Assembly: GCA_965216635.1 (NCBI GenBank) | Contig: OZ244188.1 | Coordinates: 991,058-1,055,057, forward strand | Length of the DNA: 64,000 nucleotides | Direction: 5' to 3' | From: a bacterium | GTDB lineage: Bacteria; SAR324; XYD2-FULL-50-16; G965216635 | In this document: one piece after another, positions 23,049 to 30,613 of the stretch | Layout of the letters: each line of letters starts with the position of its first letter | Position numbering within the stretch: the first letter of the stretch is position 1 | Position numbers and translations under genes: made by a program | Notes under the pieces: model-generated | Database searches by the model: none | What the model was told of the DNA's origin: nothing | The model's input: the letters and a program-made list of their open reading frames with translations, nothing else

Positions 23049-23453
23049 TTATTGTTTGATATTTACTAATTGCTGGCGAGTTTGTGAACGGTGAATTTTA
23101 TTTTTTAATTTTTCTTGGATTACGATTTCAACTTTTTCTGTTTCTATAGCTACCATTTTTTTCAATGCGTTTTTTTCTGCCAATTTAGCTCTTTCTAAAT
23201 CTACTTTTTCTTCGCAAAGTTTTACAGCAATGGAAACTTTATCCGATTTTACTTGAACAAATCCATGATGCACCGCAAAACAACTTTTTTCTCCTTGATT
23301 TTGAATACAAAGTACTCCAGAGCGGATAATACTTAAAAGATTAGCATGCCCTGTAAGTATACCTATTTCTCCAGCTAGTGTGGAAATAACTACTTCCTCT
23401 GCCTCTTTTTTGAGTAGTTTTTTCTGTGGAGTTATTAATTCTACTTTTAACAT
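23049..23453 (-). CDS. atpC: ATP synthase epsilon subunit
   Basis: ELITPQK...GEIGILTGH...VHHGFVQV. Confidence 0.9.
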   Translation of the reverse strand: MLKVELITPQKKLLKKEAEEVVISTLAGEIGILTGHANLLSIIRSGVLCIQNQGEKSCFAVHHGFVQVKSDKVSIAVKLCEEKVDLERAKLAEKNALKKMVAIETEKVEIVIQEKLKNKIHRSQTRQQLVNIKQ

Positions 23454-23498: not shown

Positions 23499-23972
23499 TT
23501 ACTCTAATCCTATTCTCCCTAGATAATTACAAAATCTTTGAGATAATAATTCACGATGCAAAGTAACTAGGGTCGCAACATATCTTTGAGCTTGATCTAA
23601 AATAAAATTTTTTTCAAATGTATAATAACGTTTAAAATCAATTACTAATGCTTTTAATTTTAAATTTTCTCCAAAGTAATGAAATCTAGCAAGTTCATTA
23701 TCTTTTAATAATTTTTTTTTTGTATTCCCTTGAATAGGACTCATGGTATTTCCCTCTATATAACTTCCGTCTATAACGAATTCACATTCATACATAGGCA
23801 ATAACATAATACTTGGTAAATTAAAATTATTTAAGGAATGCTCAATATCACACGATTGTGAAATAATAATAGATTTTGACAGAGTTAATCTTTTTTCATC
23901 AGATAAGTCTATTTCTAATTCTTTCAATATTGTTCCTTGTGTTATTTTTTTATTTACATCATATTCATACAT
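23499..23972 (-). CDS. Hypothetical protein (QG..IIISQSCD..RELLSQRFCNYLGRIG), third gene of TIGR04255-like triad
   Basis: SQxCD and C-terminal RxG motifs recall proteins found beside TIGR04255 genes; PemK-like strand pattern. Confidence 0.65.
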   Translation of the reverse strand: MYEYDVNKKITQGTILKELEIDLSDEKRLTLSKSIIISQSCDIEHSLNNFNLPSIMLLPMYECEFVIDGSYIEGNTMSPIQGNTKKKLLKDNELARFHYFGENLKLKALVIDFKRYYTFEKNFILDQAQRYVATLVTLHRELLSQRFCNYLGRIGLE

Positions 23973-23983
23973 AATAAATATAA

Positions 23984-24220
23984 TTATCCCATTTTTCTAT
24001 CGTATTTAGATTTTGGAAGTATAGTAGGATTTGTTGGAAAAAATGTAGCAAAAATTTCATTTCTACAATTAGTCGTGGTTTTATCAATAAAATAAATAAA
24101 ATTATAACGCTCTATTTCCTCTTTTTTTGCCTCTACAGGCTCTCTTCTTATATTATACCTGTTATACTCATTCTCGTTAAGTCTCCAAAGGTCTAAATCT
24201 TTACCTACTAATTTATTCAT
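23984..24220 (-). CDS. Small hypothetical protein, middle gene of triad
   Basis: 78 aa ORF with 11-12 nt gaps to both neighbours. Confidence 0.55.
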   Translation of the reverse strand: MNKLVGKDLDLWRLNENEYNRYNIRREPVEAKKEEIERYNFIYFIDKTTTNCRNEIFATFFPTNPTILPKSKYDRKMG

Positions 24221-24232
24221 ATTTTTTTATTT

Positions 24233-24973
24233 TTAAGTTTGCAATTCTTTCTTTAAAGAACTTGTAATGCTTTTAAAGAAAAGTGATTCAATTATCTCAT
24301 GCATAGCATCTAATTTCTTATCAACTTCATTTTCATTCACATTCAAACAAACAGCATCATAATCTAAAAGAAAATTTTCTTTTTCTAGTGGTGATGGATA
24401 ATTTTCATTATAATTTCCAAATAAAAAAGTAGTATCAATACTATTATCATCATTTCGATAACTGAGTCTATTTAAGTTTATAGATTTTTGAAACATTGAA
24501 GATTTACGATTTTTTGATATAAAATCAAAAAACTTATTATTAGATAGTAAATATTCGTGGACACATTTTTTCAAATTGCCTTTTAGTATATTTATATATC
24601 TAAAGCCTATTCTACTAACATACTTGAATGAAGGTTCTTTTTTTAAAATTTTTAATGCTTCTAAAAACCGTGTTTTTAAGTTTTCATACCCTATATACTT
24701 CTTAAATTCAAAAAAACAAAACACATCACTAACACCAAAATTATTATTTTTATTATCAAAATATTTATAAACAGGAAAATTTCTTTGGTCAAGTATTCTC
24801 CTATTATTCAAAAAAACTTCCTTAGTCTCTGTGTTTTGTTCTACTATGTTTTTTTCTGGGTATTTTTTATGAAAAGTCTCTTCAAATTCTTTATGAGTAA
24901 ATCTCTTAATCTGCTCAAAATCAATTTTTAAAATAACTGAATCTAAATAATGTTGGTTAGTAGATAAATTCAC
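24233..24973 (-). CDS. TIGR04255-family-like protein
   Basis: LDSVILKIDF...YKY...SRIGFRYIN...FLLDYD...HEIIESLF pattern. Confidence 0.75.
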   Translation of the reverse strand: MNLSTNQHYLDSVILKIDFEQIKRFTHKEFEETFHKKYPEKNIVEQNTETKEVFLNNRRILDQRNFPVYKYFDNKNNNFGVSDVFCFFEFKKYIGYENLKTRFLEALKILKKEPSFKYVSRIGFRYINILKGNLKKCVHEYLLSNNKFFDFISKNRKSSMFQKSINLNRLSYRNDDNSIDTTFLFGNYNENYPSPLEKENFLLDYDAVCLNVNENEVDKKLDAMHEIIESLFFKSITSSLKKELQT

Positions 24974-25007
24974 TGTGGTTTATATTTTTTAAGTTAATTT
25001 TATTAGT

Positions 25008-26603
<1,596 letters not shown>

Positions 26604-26611
26604 TTATATGA

Positions 26612-27577
26612 TTAATTCGCTTTAACAGTGTCAATCAAAAACTTATAAAATTCTTCTGCTTTATCGTAATACTCTTTTTGAAGAAATGAAAATGGAAAAC
26701 TTTTATTTTCTACAACATCAGGACTTACAGTAGGGCTGTAATTCTCACTTGTTACTTTTGTGGCTTCTCTTTTCATTTCTAGTTTGGCTAAAATACTTGC
26801 CATTTCTTCTCTATCTTTTTTTTCTAAAGCAGATATTTTTTTTCCAAATTCACTTTTAACATAAATTTCTCCATCCGTGTCGGGACTAATAGCTTTTAAT
26901 TCATTTAGCAGATTTTCTAATTTTTTTAATTTTTTGTTGTATTCAATAGAATAGTCTCTTAAAAAAACTTTTAATACCATCAAAATTTCACTGAAGCTCA
27001 GACTCTCTTGAAAGGCTACCTGTTTGATTTTAATGAGTTCTTTTTGCTCTAGTGTTTTTATAAAATTTTCTTGCAGTATATGATAAAAAGCATCCTGTTG
27101 TATATCGTAATCATTGGTATAAGGAAATCTCATATAGTTTATTAATTTCTTTTTATTATTTTCAAAAACAACATCCGCTTGAATTTTTTTTGAAATTTTT
27201 TCACCCTCATCGGATAACTGCAAAGGTGATTGGGATTTTAACAAACCTTTTTCTTTAAGAACAACTACTAGAGAAGTCAATTCTCTCGCTATTTCAGAGA
27301 TTGTCGTAATGGTCGCTTCAAATTTTTCATTTATTCTATCAAATTTTCTATCTACAGCATCAAATTTTCTATTAAAGGTAGCATTGTTCTCTTCAAATTT
27401 TCTATTAAAGGTAGCATTGTTCTCTTCAAATTTTCTATTAAAGGTAGCATTGTTCTCTTCAAATTTTTTATAAAACATTAGTTTTATAGAAAGTAGCAAG
27501 ATAATAGCTAAAAGTATAAAAATAACACTATCCCCTGTTATACCTGTAATCTGCAAAAAGTTAATTATGTTTTGCAT
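26612..27577 (-). CDS. Membrane-anchored coiled-coil protein with 3x11-aa repeat
   Basis: N-terminal TM, (KFEENNATFNR)x3. Confidence 0.7.
   Translation of the reverse strand: MQNIINFLQITGITGDSVIFILLAIILLLSIKLMFYKKFEENNATFNRKFEENNATFNRKFEENNATFNRKFDAVDRKFDRINEKFEATITTISEIARELTSLVVVLKEKGLLKSQSPLQLSDEGEKISKKIQADVVFENNKKKLINYMRFPYTNDYDIQQDAFYHILQENFIKTLEQKELIKIKQVAFQESLSFSEILMVLKVFLRDYSIEYNKKLKKLENLLNELKAISPDTDGEIYVKSEFGKKISALEKKDREEMASILAKLEMKREATKVTSENYSPTVSPDVVENKSFPFSFLQKEYYDKAEEFYKFLIDTVKAN
27362..27466 (-). repeat. 3x33-bp perfect coding tandem repeat
   Basis: AAATTTTCTATTAAAGGTAGCATTGTTCTCTTC at 27362, 27395 and 27428. Confidence 0.95.
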
Positions 27578-28533: not shown

Positions 28534-28923
28534 TTATCCCCAAAGCCGTTTGATCTGCAGCCGAATAGATTTGTCTGCAATTCTAGTAAATCTATACCTT
28601 TGTTTATAAAGAATAGGTACAGCTACATTGTTAATAGTTACTCTAATACCTAATGTGTTTGTACTGTAACTAAATTTTTTTTTATCAGCACTAGTAAAGT
28701 CTTTATTCATAATAGTAATATCCTGCGGTGTTGCCTCTGCTCTTCCAATATGTTTAATTTGATAACCATCCGCTATAGCAATCAAATCTCCTTCTTGGAC
28801 ACTACTAAAGTTTCTTGTACTTCTATAAGCAAAAACAATTTCATACTTTAAAAAAACATCCATAATAGAAAACTTTTTGTTTCCTTGAGAATGCCAATTT
28901 GAACCTACTTTCCAAATTTCCAT
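28534..28923 (-). CDS. Hypothetical protein, possible EVE/PUA-like domain
   Basis: IWKVGSNW...QEGDLIAIADG...IG pattern; tightly spaced to atpG. Confidence 0.55.
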   Translation of the reverse strand: MEIWKVGSNWHSQGNKKFSIMDVFLKYEIVFAYRSTRNFSSVQEGDLIAIADGYQIKHIGRAEATPQDITIMNKDFTSADKKKFSYSTNTLGIRVTINNVAVPILYKQRYRFTRIADKSIRLQIKRLWG

Positions 28924-28956
28924 AGTTTTTATATTAAATTAAGCTATTGAACTGGT

Positions 28957-28987
28957 TAAAATCTTTTTAGGAAAAACTAAAGCTATT
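28957..28987. repeat. 31-bp direct repeat, copy duplicated from menA 3' end
   Basis: TAAAATCTTTTTAGGAAAAACTAAAGCTATT identical at 28957-28987 and 29669-29699. Confidence 0.9.
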
Positions 28988-28990
28988 TCC

Positions 28991-29131
28991 TCATTCAAAG
29001 GTAATAAAAGCTACAATGCCAATAATAGTAGCCCAAGTATGAATCCAACCTATGTTTCTATTTTTGGTAGAATTTAATAATTTTTTATCACTTTTACCTA
29101 TTTTTATTTTTTTTAGGTGTGGAGGATTCAT
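28991..29131 (-). CDS. 46-aa small ORF with C-terminal hydrophobic helix
   Basis: Manual translation MNPPHLKKIKIGKSDKKLLNSTKNRNIGWIHTWATIIGIVAFITFE; ATG directly follows the Panacea stop. Confidence 0.5.
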   Translation of the reverse strand: MNPPHLKKIKIGKSDKKLLNSTKNRNIGWIHTWATIIGIVAFITFE

Positions 29132-29623
29132 TTAAGCCAATACTTCCTTTTTAAAATATTCTTTTATTACTTCAGCATCAATTTCAATATTTATTTTTCC
29201 TTCTTCATAGAATTTATCCCAAGGAGTGCCCGTATCGTGTGTTCTATCTATTAACTCTCCCGTAGGCATATCACCATATTCTTCCTTGATAACCTTTAGA
29301 GTTTCAAATGCTTCTTCATCGTCCTCATCTATCATAGGATAAATGAGCTTATCTTTGACTGGGTTATGAATATAAGAAAGCTCTTTAATTTTGCCGTAGC
29401 TATATTTTTTAAACTCGTGGTAGATAGAAGGAATCACGGGACCCAAACGCCAAGCCTGTATAGGCTCTTTAAACAAAATTCTATTGTAATAAGCGTAAGC
29501 CACTCCAAAAGCAAGATAGACAAATTTATTGAGTCTAATATTATCTACATAATCTAAATTATCTATAAAGTAATTCGCCAGATGTGCTGGAGTATAATAT
29601 TTGTTTTCTTTTTTTTTAGTCAT
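29132..29623 (-). CDS. Panacea-domain (DUF4065, SocA/GepA-like) antitoxin
   Basis: RLNKFVY...LFKEPIQAWRLGPVIPSIY...THDTGTPW. Confidence 0.85.
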   Translation of the reverse strand: MTKKKENKYYTPAHLANYFIDNLDYVDNIRLNKFVYLAFGVAYAYYNRILFKEPIQAWRLGPVIPSIYHEFKKYSYGKIKELSYIHNPVKDKLIYPMIDEDDEEAFETLKVIKEEYGDMPTGELIDRTHDTGTPWDKFYEEGKINIEIDAEVIKEYFKKEVLA

Positions 29624-29650
29624 TTTTCAAAATTTAAGTTTCTCCATAAT

Positions 29651-30613
29651 TTAAGAAATTATTAAAGGTAAAATCTTTTTAGGAAAAACTAAAGCTATTC
29701 CATAAGATAAGGCAATAAAAAACACAAAGAAACAATGTTTAGTATGAAATACATTATATTTTTTTTTAATTCTGCCGAGAGAAAAATTTATTTTAATAAG
29801 TGGTAAATAACATATTAGAAAAAGCCACTGATACCAATATAAAAATCTATAACTACTAGCCAAAATAAAAAAAGCTAAACTAACAAGAATAATTATTTTT
29901 TGATATAATTTTGCTTTTTTTTCTCCTAATCTAATAGCAATAGTTTTTCGTCCTCCTTTCTTATCAGACTTTATATCGCGAATATTGTTTAAATTGATTG
30001 CTGAGACAGCTAAAGTTCCTATAGCGATAGATTCTAAAAATAAAAAGTGATTGTAATTTAAGGTCAATAAAAAATAGCTTCCAATCACACCAACGGGTCC
30101 CTCAAAAATAAATATAGAAATATCTCCCAATCCAGTTTTACTATGAGGAGTTATTCCTAAACTATATTTTAGAGCTGCCCATAAGCAAAGCAATCCAATC
30201 AAAAACCATAGCCAGAAATAAAAAGATGTTATACTCTTAAAAGAAAAAAATAAAAGGACTACGCTTAGAAATATACAAAAAATTACTGCTGCAATGATTA
30301 TAGTTTTTATTGCTTTAGCAGAAATTTTTCCTGATCCAAATATTCTTTCAGGTCCTATTCTATTTTTACCATCTATTCCTCTTATACCATCTCCGTAATC
30401 ATTCGCCACAGATGCTACAAATTCTAAACAGGCGGCTGTTAGCAAAAGCAAAATACTCAGTTTCCAAGAAAAAAATCCATCCTCAAGGGCTAAAAAAATG
30501 CCTATTACAATAGAAGAAATAATTGTTAATATAAATTGAACTCTAATTAACTTCAAATAAACTAATTTTTTACTTAAGTTAATAATTTTAAATTTTTTTA
30601 TTTCTAAAAACAC
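29651..30613 (-). CDS. menA: 1,4-dihydroxy-2-naphthoate prenyltransferase (UbiA family)
   Basis: ANDYGDGIRGIDG..RIGPER and NNIRDIKSDKKGGRKTIAIRLG motifs. Confidence 0.85.
   Translation of the reverse strand: MFLEIKKFKIINLSKKLVYLKLIRVQFILTIISSIVIGIFLALEDGFFSWKLSILLLLTAACLEFVASVANDYGDGIRGIDGKNRIGPERIFGSGKISAKAIKTIIIAAVIFCIFLSVVLLFFSFKSITSFYFWLWFLIGLLCLWAALKYSLGITPHSKTGLGDISIFIFEGPVGVIGSYFLLTLNYNHFLFLESIAIGTLAVSAINLNNIRDIKSDKKGGRKTIAIRLGEKKAKLYQKIIILVSLAFFILASSYRFLYWYQWLFLICYLPLIKINFSLGRIKKKYNVFHTKHCFFVFFIALSYGIALVFPKKILPLIIS

What the first reader, a model, noticed from the sequence alone, without database searches (positions are those of the whole stretch)
23499..24973. TIGR04255-like / 78-aa / SQSCD-motif triad: candidate tripartite toxin-antitoxin-chaperone or defence system
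Seen: three tightly spaced genes (11-12 nt gaps). The last has IIISQSCD...IMLLP, resembling the PemK/MazF strand pattern, and a C-terminal RELLSQRFCNYLGRIG. Known: TIGR04255 is a sporadically distributed family of unknown function. Inference: chaperone-like TIGR04255, a short antitoxin and a nuclease-like toxin. All three look intact, unlike other modules here.
Basis: partly seen in the sequence, partly recalled or inferred. Interest (0 to 1): 0.72.

Follow-up and report, generated by a model that had tools for sequence, protein, structure and literature searches.

The report
TIGR04255-led three-gene toxin-antitoxin-like cassette
Three tightly packed foreign genes wedged between two ATP-synthase genes are one copy of a widespread, unstudied cassette found in bacteria, archaea and phages; its last gene has the shape of the MazF RNA-cutting toxin, so it is probably a new three-part toxin-antitoxin or anti-phage module.

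Summary
Three co-oriented, intact ORFs lie at 24233-24973 (A, 246 aa), 23984-24220 (B, 78 aa) and 23499-23972 (C, 157 aa), with 12- and 11-nt gaps. A is a true TIGR04255 protein (66.6 bits, cut-off 30).

C matches no Pfam, NCBIfam or PADLOC model. Its AlphaFold model (pLDDT 94.6) hits only MazF/PemK toxins in the PDB and in BFVD. C belongs to an unnamed family of about 2,700 clusters.

The A - small ORF - C order recurs in 37 trios from bacteria and archaea, and A lies directly upstream of C on 3 viral contigs. Every junction in the 37 overlaps or is 13 nt or shorter.

A's model (pLDDT 90.1) has a TBP-like beta-alpha-beta4-alpha x2 topology, not a SecB fold. In a sample from another phylum, TIGR04255 heads 28 trios. 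Their second and third genes fall into 11 and 10 clusters that track each other, and one third gene is a canonical PemK; a trio in the window's own phylum ends in a PIN.

Relatives have atpD abutting atpC, so this is a 1.7-kb insertion.

Best reading (about 0.55): C is the toxin, B a disordered cognate antitoxin or adaptor, and A a conserved hub. No function was tested.

The parts
24233..24973 (-). Gene A: TIGR04255-family protein, 246 aa, first gene of the cassette. It is the conserved 'hub'.
   Evidence: NCBIfam TIGR04255 scores 66.6 bits against a cut-off of 30. The AlphaFold model has pLDDT 90.1 and a beta-alpha-beta4-alpha x2 topology. The best Foldseek hits are TBP with low TM-scores, and no SecB appears. 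All family-invariant residues are present: R125, G186, D204, D206.
23984..24220 (-). Gene B: 78-aa hydrophilic, fast-evolving small protein. It is the candidate antitoxin or adaptor.
   Evidence: B matches no family. A 52-83 aa ORF occupies this position in all 37 trios. It is the least conserved of the three genes, with mean pairwise identity 0.24. GRAVY is -0.99. It is fused to C in L130, P0097 and P0137. The closest B (L126) is 37% identical with the same C-terminus.
23499..23972 (-). Gene C: 157-aa MazF/PemK-fold protein of an unnamed family. It is the candidate toxin or effector.
   Evidence: The model has pLDDT 94.6. Foldseek PDB top 50 are all MazF or close homologues, best E 1.2e-4 and TM 0.57-0.68 normalised by target. 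BFVD top hits are PemK-like. There is no Pfam, NCBIfam or PADLOC match. The family has 341 representatives at 50% clustering and 2,699 clusters at 90%. Conserved columns are QG, SQxCD, LP, GxH, RxH, DFK and RExLSQRFxNYLxRIGLP.
24974..25172 (.). Spacer between the atpD stop and the A start. It carries a roughly 115-nt dispersed repeat (core about 25008-25125).
   Evidence: At least 43 matches at 73-95% identity are scattered over the 2.39-Mb genome. The repeat is not part of the conserved cassette in other organisms.
23049..23453 (-). atpC (F1 epsilon), the downstream flank of the insertion.
   Evidence: In five relatives atpC starts about 10-25 nt after atpD. Here the two genes are 1,719 nt apart.
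25173..26576 (-). atpD (F1 beta), the upstream flank of the insertion.
   Evidence: It is 75-87% identical to atpD of relatives, where atpC follows directly.

Best explanation
The triad is a horizontally acquired, self-contained three-gene cassette of the toxin-antitoxin type, inserted between atpD and atpC and probably co-transcribed with them.

Shown: A is a TIGR04255 protein with a TBP-like two-repeat alpha/beta topology. C is a MazF-fold protein from a large unnamed family. A small hydrophilic ORF always lies between them. All junctions are overlapping or 13 nt or shorter. The cassette occurs sporadically across bacterial and archaeal phyla and on phage contigs, in unrelated neighbourhoods.

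Also shown: TIGR04255 genes elsewhere head analogous trios whose second and third genes co-vary as cognate pairs. One of those third genes is a canonical PemK toxin and one is a PIN.

Inferred: C is the growth-arresting effector. It is most likely a metal-independent endoribonuclease that uses its own conserved set (H71, R96, H98, K114, plus C41/D42) rather than the MazF Arg/Thr pair. B is an intrinsically disordered cognate antitoxin or adaptor that binds C directly; fused B-C proteins exist. A is a conserved hub that stabilises, positions or releases B. That role is analogous to, but not homologous with, the SecB-like chaperone of TAC systems, and A may double as the trigger sensor in phage defence.

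The window copy is intact but carries Tyr at the 92%-conserved His71 of C.
For: Identity and fold.

Conserved order: 34 of 39 genome loci have A directly upstream of C on the same strand. The exceptions are two contig edges, two C fragments and one locus without A. Each of the 34 has a 52-83 aa ORF between A and C. Both junctions overlap or are 13 nt or shorter in 37 of 37 trios.

Mobility: only 1 of 40 relatives carries C, and the window genome has one copy. Neighbours are heterogeneous with no fourth conserved gene; they include 4 integrases and 2-3 type I R-M methyltransferases. Some copies sit next to IS1595 transposases or phage tail genes, and 3 are on IMG/VR contigs. GC is low, and the site is empty in five relatives.

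Hub logic: TIGR04255 occurs in 11 of 88 and 32 of 401 genomes of two phyla. Twenty-eight of the 30 loci fetched from the second phylum form trios, with 10 third-gene and 11 second-gene clusters that track each other. Third genes include PemK_toxin (E 1.1e-18) and, in the window's own phylum, PIN (32.6 bits).

B-C contact: fusions occur in L130, P0097 and P0137.

Conservation order is C > A > B (0.38, 0.30, 0.24), as is usual for a toxin compared with its antitoxin.
Against: C is not detectably homologous to PemK by sequence or by profile (hhalign probability 1.5%). Foldseek TM-scores are moderate (0.45-0.53 normalised by the query). The MazF catalytic residues do not appear conserved, so RNase activity is an extrapolation.

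B has no DNA-binding or known antitoxin domain. It is often basic rather than acidic.

A keeps invariant R, D-x-D, Y and N residues, which look more like an enzyme than a passive chaperone.

One locus has B and C without A. No PADLOC model matches any component. Defence-island enrichment around the cassette is weak.

The H71Y change could mean the window copy is attenuated.
Confidence: 0.55

Rival explanations
1. This is a type II TA pair (B-C) plus a dedicated transcriptional regulator (A), like omega-epsilon-zeta or paaR2-paaA2-parE2. A's TBP-like saddle binds the operator, because neither B nor C has a DNA-binding domain.
For: A's best Foldseek hits are DNA-binding TBPs. A is the first gene. 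B and C lack any DNA-binding domain. B and C occur without A in L023.
Against: TM-scores to TBP are only 0.26-0.33. A is 250 aa with invariant R, DxD, Y and N residues that are atypical of a repressor. One constant regulator serving at least 10 unrelated second/third gene pairs in hosts from bacteria to archaea is hard to reconcile with operator specificity.
Confidence: 0.12
2. A is an enzyme that chemically modifies B or C, as in type VII TA logic (for example HepT/MntA or TglT/TakA), or that produces or senses a small molecule. B acts as an adaptor that presents the toxin.
For: Invariant polar residues in A (R125, D204, D206; nearly invariant Y93, Y126, N128, N189) are conserved across bacteria and archaea. 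A stays constant while the partner pairs swap.
Against: A resembles no known enzyme by sequence or by fold. No nucleotide-binding motif is recognisable.
Confidence: 0.13
3. This is not a TA module. C is a Cys/His hydrolase built on a MazF-like barrel, with C41 at a helix N-terminus, H98 and D112 on adjacent strands and Q39 as an oxyanion helper. It processes the variable small protein B, with A as a scaffold, as a peptide-maturation or signalling cassette.
For: Q39, C41, D42, H98 and D112 are invariant or nearly so. C41 lies at the start of predicted helix 40-45, and H98 and D112 lie on strands. B is small and hypervariable with a recurrent C-terminal motif.
Against: Foldseek returns only MazF/PemK RNases, no peptidases. 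In other TIGR04255 trios the third position holds PemK and PIN RNases. There are no export or modification genes nearby.
Confidence: 0.07
4. In this genome the cassette is an inert, decaying passenger. It has intact reading frames but an inactivated toxin (H71Y), fixed only because it sits inside an essential operon.
For: C has Tyr at a position that is His in 92% of the family and in all six closest homologues. Canonical PemK genes elsewhere in the genome are fragments of 54-84 aa. The genome shows many wedge-like insertions.
Against: All three frames are intact. C deviates at only 3 of 26 conserved columns, within the family's normal range: 17-21% of members deviate as much. A keeps all invariants. 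B is full length relative to its nearest relative.
Confidence: 0.13

Closest known systems
Toxin-antitoxin-chaperone (TAC) systems: M. tuberculosis HigBA-SecB(TA) and CmdTAC/HigBAC (PMC6377645, PMC11618068, bioRxiv 10.1101/2024.02.24.581848)
   Same: Both are three co-transcribed genes. One conserved accessory protein serves many unrelated toxin-antitoxin pairs. The antitoxin is a labile, partly disordered protein. Both are sporadic, mobile and sometimes phage-borne.
   Different: The accessory protein here is TIGR04255, with a TBP-like two-repeat topology, not a SecB homologue. It is encoded first, not last. No ChAD element is recognisable in B. No experimental evidence exists.
MazEF / PemIK (Kid/Kis) type II TA systems (Pfam PF02452)
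   Same: C has a MazF/PemK-like fold, and all top structural hits are MazF or close homologues. A small upstream partner gene is translationally coupled to it. A canonical PemK occupies the same third position in another TIGR04255 trio.
   Different: C shows no sequence or profile similarity to PemK. It has an insertion of about 35 residues with two helices between strands 3 and 4. Its conserved residues differ (C41, D42, H71, R96, H98, D112, K114) and its C-terminal helix RExLSQRFxNYLxRIGLP is almost invariant. B lacks the AbrB or RHH DNA-binding domain of MazE/PemI. There is an obligatory third gene.
Three-gene type II operons with a separate first gene (omega-epsilon-zeta; paaR2-paaA2-parE2)
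   Same: The gene order is accessory - antitoxin - toxin, and the antitoxin has no DNA-binding domain of its own.
   Different: In those systems the first gene is a small RHH or HTH repressor specific to one system. A is a 250-aa protein shared by many different pairs.
Panacea (DUF4065) hyperpromiscuous antitoxin domain, PanAT (PMC8832971)
   Same: The concept is the same: one conserved protein or domain is partnered with many unrelated toxins.
   Different: Panacea is itself the antitoxin in two-gene systems. Here a separate variable middle gene co-varies with the toxin, and A is a distinct third component.

Membership tests
TIGR04255 (NCBIfam 'sporadTIGR04255') | HMM score above the curated cut-off (30 bits) over the full model | tested here: met
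   A scores 66.6 bits, E 2.9e-18, covering model positions 4-251 of 252. The A genes of L001, L002 and L004 score 85-110 bits.
PemK/MazF toxin family (Pfam PF02452) | Pfam HMM match at or above the gathering score | tested here: not met
   There is no hit for C even at E <= 1. None of 82 family members hits any Pfam model at E <= 0.01.
PemK/MazF toxin family (Pfam PF02452) | Detectable remote homology by profile-profile comparison | tested here: not met
   hhalign of the 127-sequence C profile against a 30-sequence PemK profile gives probability 1.5% and E 0.034.
CcdB/MazF fold superfamily | SH3-like barrel with a C-terminal helix (MazF topology) | tested here: met
   The model has pLDDT 94.6. 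All 50 top PDB hits are MazF or close homologues, with probability 0.97-1.00, E down to 1.2e-4 and TM 0.56-0.68 by target. The top BFVD hits are PemK-like.
PemK/MazF toxin family | Catalytic Arg (beta1-beta2 region) and Thr/Ser (end of beta3) of MazF | tested here: inconclusive
   Neither a superposition nor model coordinates were available. By motif inspection the equivalent positions (consensus xPYxVVLSQ and LPAY) carry no conserved Arg or Thr. This is inference only.
PemK/MazF toxin family | Sequence-specific endoribonuclease activity and growth arrest | not testable with these tools
   This needs expression and in vitro cleavage assays.
TAC (toxin-antitoxin-chaperone) systems | Third component is a SecB-like chaperone | tested here: not met
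   A has no SecB Pfam hit. Its fold topology is beta-alpha-beta4-alpha x2. The best Foldseek hits are TBP and other TBP-like-fold domains, and no SecB is among the 50 listed hits.
TAC (toxin-antitoxin-chaperone) systems | One conserved accessory protein serves diverse cognate TA pairs | tested here: met
   In 28 TIGR04255 trios from one phylum, the second and third genes form 11 and 10 clusters that track each other. Third genes include PemK and, in a separate trio from the window's own phylum, PIN.
TAC (toxin-antitoxin-chaperone) systems | Antitoxin carries a chaperone-addiction segment bound by the accessory protein | not testable with these tools
   No motif shared across B clusters was seen by eye. 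No multimer prediction tool was available.
Type II toxin-antitoxin module | Tightly coupled cognate gene pair, with the toxin more conserved than the antitoxin | tested here: met
   Junctions overlap or are 13 nt or shorter in 37 of 37 trios. Mean pairwise identity is 0.38 for C against 0.24 for B.
Type II toxin-antitoxin module | Antitoxin with a DNA-binding domain that autoregulates the operon | tested here: not met
   None of the 40 B proteins has a Pfam domain.
Known or candidate anti-phage defence systems (PADLOC-DB v2.0.0) | Match to any model of the database | tested here: not met
   A, B and C of the window have no hit at E <= 1. Of 82 C proteins, only three give singleton hits at E 0.003-0.009. 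None of 39 A proteins has a hit.

The most novel reading that the evidence does not exclude
TIGR04255 proteins are the common hub of a large, unrecognised class of three-component toxin-antitoxin or abortive-infection modules in bacteria, archaea and their viruses. A TBP-like two-repeat protein, unrelated to SecB, controls many unrelated adaptor-toxin pairs, acting as chaperone, sensor or enzyme. The subtype found here carries a new MazF-fold effector family of about 2,700 clusters with its own catalytic constellation and an almost invariant C-terminal helix. That helix may contact the hub or a universally conserved target such as the ribosome.
Probability: 0.4. Interest if true: 0.82.

Novelty: new variant of a known kind. 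Interest (0 to 1): 0.64.

Why it matters
If confirmed, this would give a function to TIGR04255. That family is curated as 'sporadically distributed, function unknown', and the searched literature holds no paper mentioning it.

It would also add a second, non-SecB solution to the problem of one helper protein serving many toxin-antitoxin pairs. And it would define a new MazF-fold effector family that spans bacteria, archaea and phages.

The cassette is small (1.5 kb), self-contained and directly testable in laboratory E. coli.

Locally, it shows a selfish module lodged between atpD and atpC. There, loss by deletion risks an essential operon, and atpC expression probably depends on transcription through the cassette.

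Tried and rejected
1. SecB-like fold for A: rejected.
2. Sequence-level PemK membership of C: rejected by Pfam and by hhalign.
3. Solved-structure relatives by sequence for A and C: nothing below E 0.01.
4. Internal sequence repeat between the two halves of A: hhalign probability 0.9%. The duplication shows only in the secondary-structure topology.
5. Target-site duplication or terminal repeats around the insertion: only short AT-rich chance repeats. The ancestral atpD-atpC gap is too short (about 10-25 nt) to locate the borders.
6. A fourth conserved neighbour or a defence-island signature: neighbours are heterogeneous.
7. A motif shared by B proteins of different TIGR04255 trio types, as a possible A-binding site: none seen by eye.
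8. A recurrent C-terminal aromatic-Lys-basic-strand motif in B: found in 24 of 39, against 6.6 +/- 2.2 in shuffles. The pattern was defined after looking at the data, and the window's own B lacks it.
9. Literature: no paper contains TIGR04255, CHP04255 or IPR026349. Gerdes 2024 (PMC10865869) and the 2026 NAR domain-centric screen (PMC13069673) describe other systems.
11. Promoter and terminator scan: no minus-strand terminator between atpD and atpC, and promoter-like sites are not above shuffled expectation.
Full report
**Observation.** The minus strand carries three intact ORFs. A is 24233-24973 (246 aa, GTG start), B is 23984-24220 (78 aa) and C is 23499-23972 (157 aa). They are separated by 12 and 11 nt. 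B and C match nothing in Pfam, NCBIfam or PADLOC, even at E <= 1.

**Setting.** The triad lies inside the ATP synthase operon, co-oriented with it, between atpD (25173-26576) and atpC (23049-23453). Its GC content is 21-27%, against 33-44% for the flanking atp genes.
- In five relatives (same family and same order) atpC begins about 10-25 nt after atpD. The 1,719 nt between the two genes here is therefore a lineage-specific insertion.
- The 199-nt spacer between atpD and A holds a roughly 115-nt dispersed repeat with at least 43 copies in this 2.39-Mb genome. That repeat is a feature of the host genome, not of the cassette.
- No flanking direct repeats were found.
- No terminator-like site lies on the minus strand between atpD and atpC. 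atpC is probably transcribed through the cassette, but this is inference.
- The genome has a single copy of A and of C. Only one of 40 relatives has C.

**C is a MazF-fold protein of a large unnamed family.** A word-based search found six homologues. The exhaustive search found 341 representatives at 50% clustering. A profile search found 2,699 clusters at 90% identity; every source name given among the 120 listed is 'hypothetical' or 'uncharacterised', and none has a Pfam domain.
- Conserved columns are Q12-G13, S38-Q39-x-C41-D42, P59, G69-x-H71, N92, R96-x-H98, D112-F113-K114, and an almost invariant C-terminal helix R-E-x-L-S-Q-R-F-x-N-Y-L-x-R-I-G-L-P.
- With an 82-sequence alignment, AlphaFold2 gave pLDDT 94.6 and pTM 0.88.
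- Foldseek against the PDB returned only MazF toxins and close homologues (YdcE, MoxT and similar) in the top 50. The best E was 1.2e-4, probability 0.97-1.00, TM 0.56-0.68 normalised by target and 0.41-0.53 by query.
- The viral library likewise returned PemK-like proteins at the top.
- At sequence level there is no link. None of 82 members hits Pfam, and hhalign against a PemK profile built from 30 genomic PemK genes gave probability 1.5%.
- So C shares the MazF fold but is not a PF02452 member. It has an insertion of about 35 residues with two helices that carry G69/H71/N92. By motif inspection the MazF catalytic Arg/Thr are not kept; this is inference.
- The window's C keeps 23 of 26 conserved columns, an ordinary score for the family. 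It has Tyr at His71, which is His in 92% of members and in all its close relatives.

**The gene order is conserved across domains of life.**
- Metagenomic contigs encoding three homologues all show A (249-250 aa, TIGR04255 at 85-110 bits), a 66-75 aa ORF, then C.
- A scan of species-representative genomes returned 39 loci. They come from Patescibacteria, Proteobacteria, Clostridia, Bacilli, Bacteroidota, Spirochaetota and Acidobacteriota, and from archaea (Methanosarcinaceae, Methanoperedens, Methanothrix, Methanobrevibacter, Argoarchaeum).
- In 34 of these an A homologue lies directly upstream on the same strand. Two exceptions are contig edges, two are C fragments, and one (L023) has B and C but no A.
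- Each of the 34 has a 52-83 aa ORF in between.
- In 37 trios both junctions overlap or are 13 nt or shorter.
- Three IMG/VR viral contigs carry A directly upstream of C. One metagenomic copy abuts phage tail genes.
- The closest relatives sit beside IS1595 transposase genes.
- The 123 nearest neighbouring genes are heterogeneous. There are 4 integrases, 2-3 type I R-M methyltransferases and 2 Fic proteins; the rest are mostly housekeeping genes. No fourth gene is conserved.

**B.** B is the least conserved component, with mean pairwise identity 0.24 against 0.30 for A and 0.38 for C.
- It is strongly hydrophilic: GRAVY is -0.89 on average and -0.99 here.
- None of 40 B proteins has a Pfam domain.
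- Most B proteins end in an aromatic-x-x-(S/T)-K-(P)-basic-beta-like motif.
- The window's subclade (window, L126, L001, L004) instead shares PKSKYD-x-K-(I/M)-G. The window's B ends exactly where its nearest relative's does, so it is not truncated.
- B-like segments are fused to the N-terminus of C in a viral contig (L130, one 243-aa ORF directly after A) and in P0097 and P0137. This argues for direct B-C interaction.

**A.** With a 39-sequence alignment the model reached pLDDT 90.1.
- The order of secondary-structure elements is beta-alpha-beta4-alpha twice over.
- Foldseek's best hits are TATA-binding proteins (E 1.6e-3, probability 0.98) but with TM only 0.26-0.33.
- Lower hits are other TBP-like-fold domains: the phosphoglucomutase C-terminal domain, and Bet v 1 or START proteins. 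Assigning these hits to the TBP-like fold class rests on my own knowledge of SCOP, not on a tool result.
- No SecB appears among the 50 listed hits. No sequence repeat between the two halves is detectable. No PDB relative is found by sequence.
- R125, G186, D204 and D206 are invariant, and Y93, G123, Y126, N128, N189 and P193 nearly so. All are present in the window's A.
- A is therefore not SecB-like, and its biochemical role is open.

**TIGR04255 as a hub.** Earlier AI notes from this scan suggested this idea, and I tested it here independently.
- TIGR04255 occurs in 11 of 88 genomes of the window's phylum and in 32 of 401 genomes of the phylum of G088.
- Among the loci from the window's phylum, one trio ends in a PIN-domain protein (32.6 bits) and one in DUF7689.
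- In 28 of the 30 loci fetched from the other phylum, A is followed by two tightly coupled same-strand genes.
- The 28 second genes form 11 BLAST clusters and the third genes form 10. Cluster membership tracks almost one-to-one between the two positions.
- Of the 27 third genes scanned against Pfam, one (L103) is a canonical PemK_toxin (E 1.1e-18) and the other 26 have no hit.
- Only one of the 30 loci belongs to the MazF-fold family seen here.
- So a constant first gene precedes interchangeable cognate pairs. Where the last member can be recognised as a toxin, it is a classical TA RNase.

**Mechanism proposed.** C is the effector, probably an RNase with its own active site. B is its cognate, disordered neutraliser. 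A is a conserved hub acting on B: as a stabiliser, a sensor, or possibly an enzyme.
- Shown: fold, synteny, coupling, co-variation, fusions and mobility.
- Inferred: toxicity, neutralisation, RNase chemistry, the role of A, and any role in phage defence.
- Confidence is about 0.55.
- The rivals are: A as a regulator; A as a modifying enzyme; C as a Cys/His hydrolase acting on B; and an inert copy in this genome.

**Comparison with known systems.** By architecture the closest are TAC systems (PMC6377645, PMC11618068). The difference is that the helper is unrelated to SecB and is encoded first. By fold the closest are MazEF and PemIK, but C fails sequence membership and B lacks MazE's DNA-binding domain. 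PADLOC v2 contains none of the three components, and no paper in the searched library mentions TIGR04255. I rate it a new variant of a known kind: a tripartite TA-like module.

**Limits.** No multimer prediction was available.

Noticed in passing
window 26612-27577 and 28534-30613: The ATP synthase operon carries further low-GC inserts. One is a 321-aa ORF between atpG and atpD that contains the tandem peptide repeat KFEENNATFNR three times. The others are three ORFs between atpA and atpG.
   Followed up: partly
window 25008-25125 (within the spacer 24974-25172): A dispersed repeat of about 115 nt has at least 43 copies at 73-95% identity across the 2.39-Mb genome (323 first-look candidates). 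It looks like a MITE/REP-like element, and it sits just upstream of gene A.
   Followed up: partly
G000:C1:447045-447263, 1759499-1759693 and 1759665-1759811 (outside the window): The canonical PemK/MazF genes in this genome are fragments of 84, 67 and 54 aa, one with an internal stop. The MazF-fold gene of the triad, in contrast, is intact.
   Followed up: no
L130:3866-5453 (IMG/VR viral contig): This is a two-gene version of the cassette. A (287 aa) is followed by one 243-aa ORF whose N-terminal 70 or so residues look like B and are fused to the C domain. P0097 and P0137 have similar N-terminal extensions.
   Followed up: partly
L023:5823-6540: This Spirochaetales locus has B (57 aa) and C (189 aa) but no TIGR04255 gene. 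An oppositely oriented ABC-ATPase-like ORF lies where A would be.
   Followed up: partly
L001:3104-3904 and L126:50-283: In the window cassette's closest relatives, IS1595-family transposase genes or fragments lie immediately upstream of A. This is a possible vehicle for the subclade.
   Followed up: no
L083 (G050:C1:1239869-1240582 region): This TIGR04255 trio has a DUF7689 protein as its third gene (134.5 bits). DUF7689 may therefore be an unrecognised toxin or effector family.
   Followed up: no
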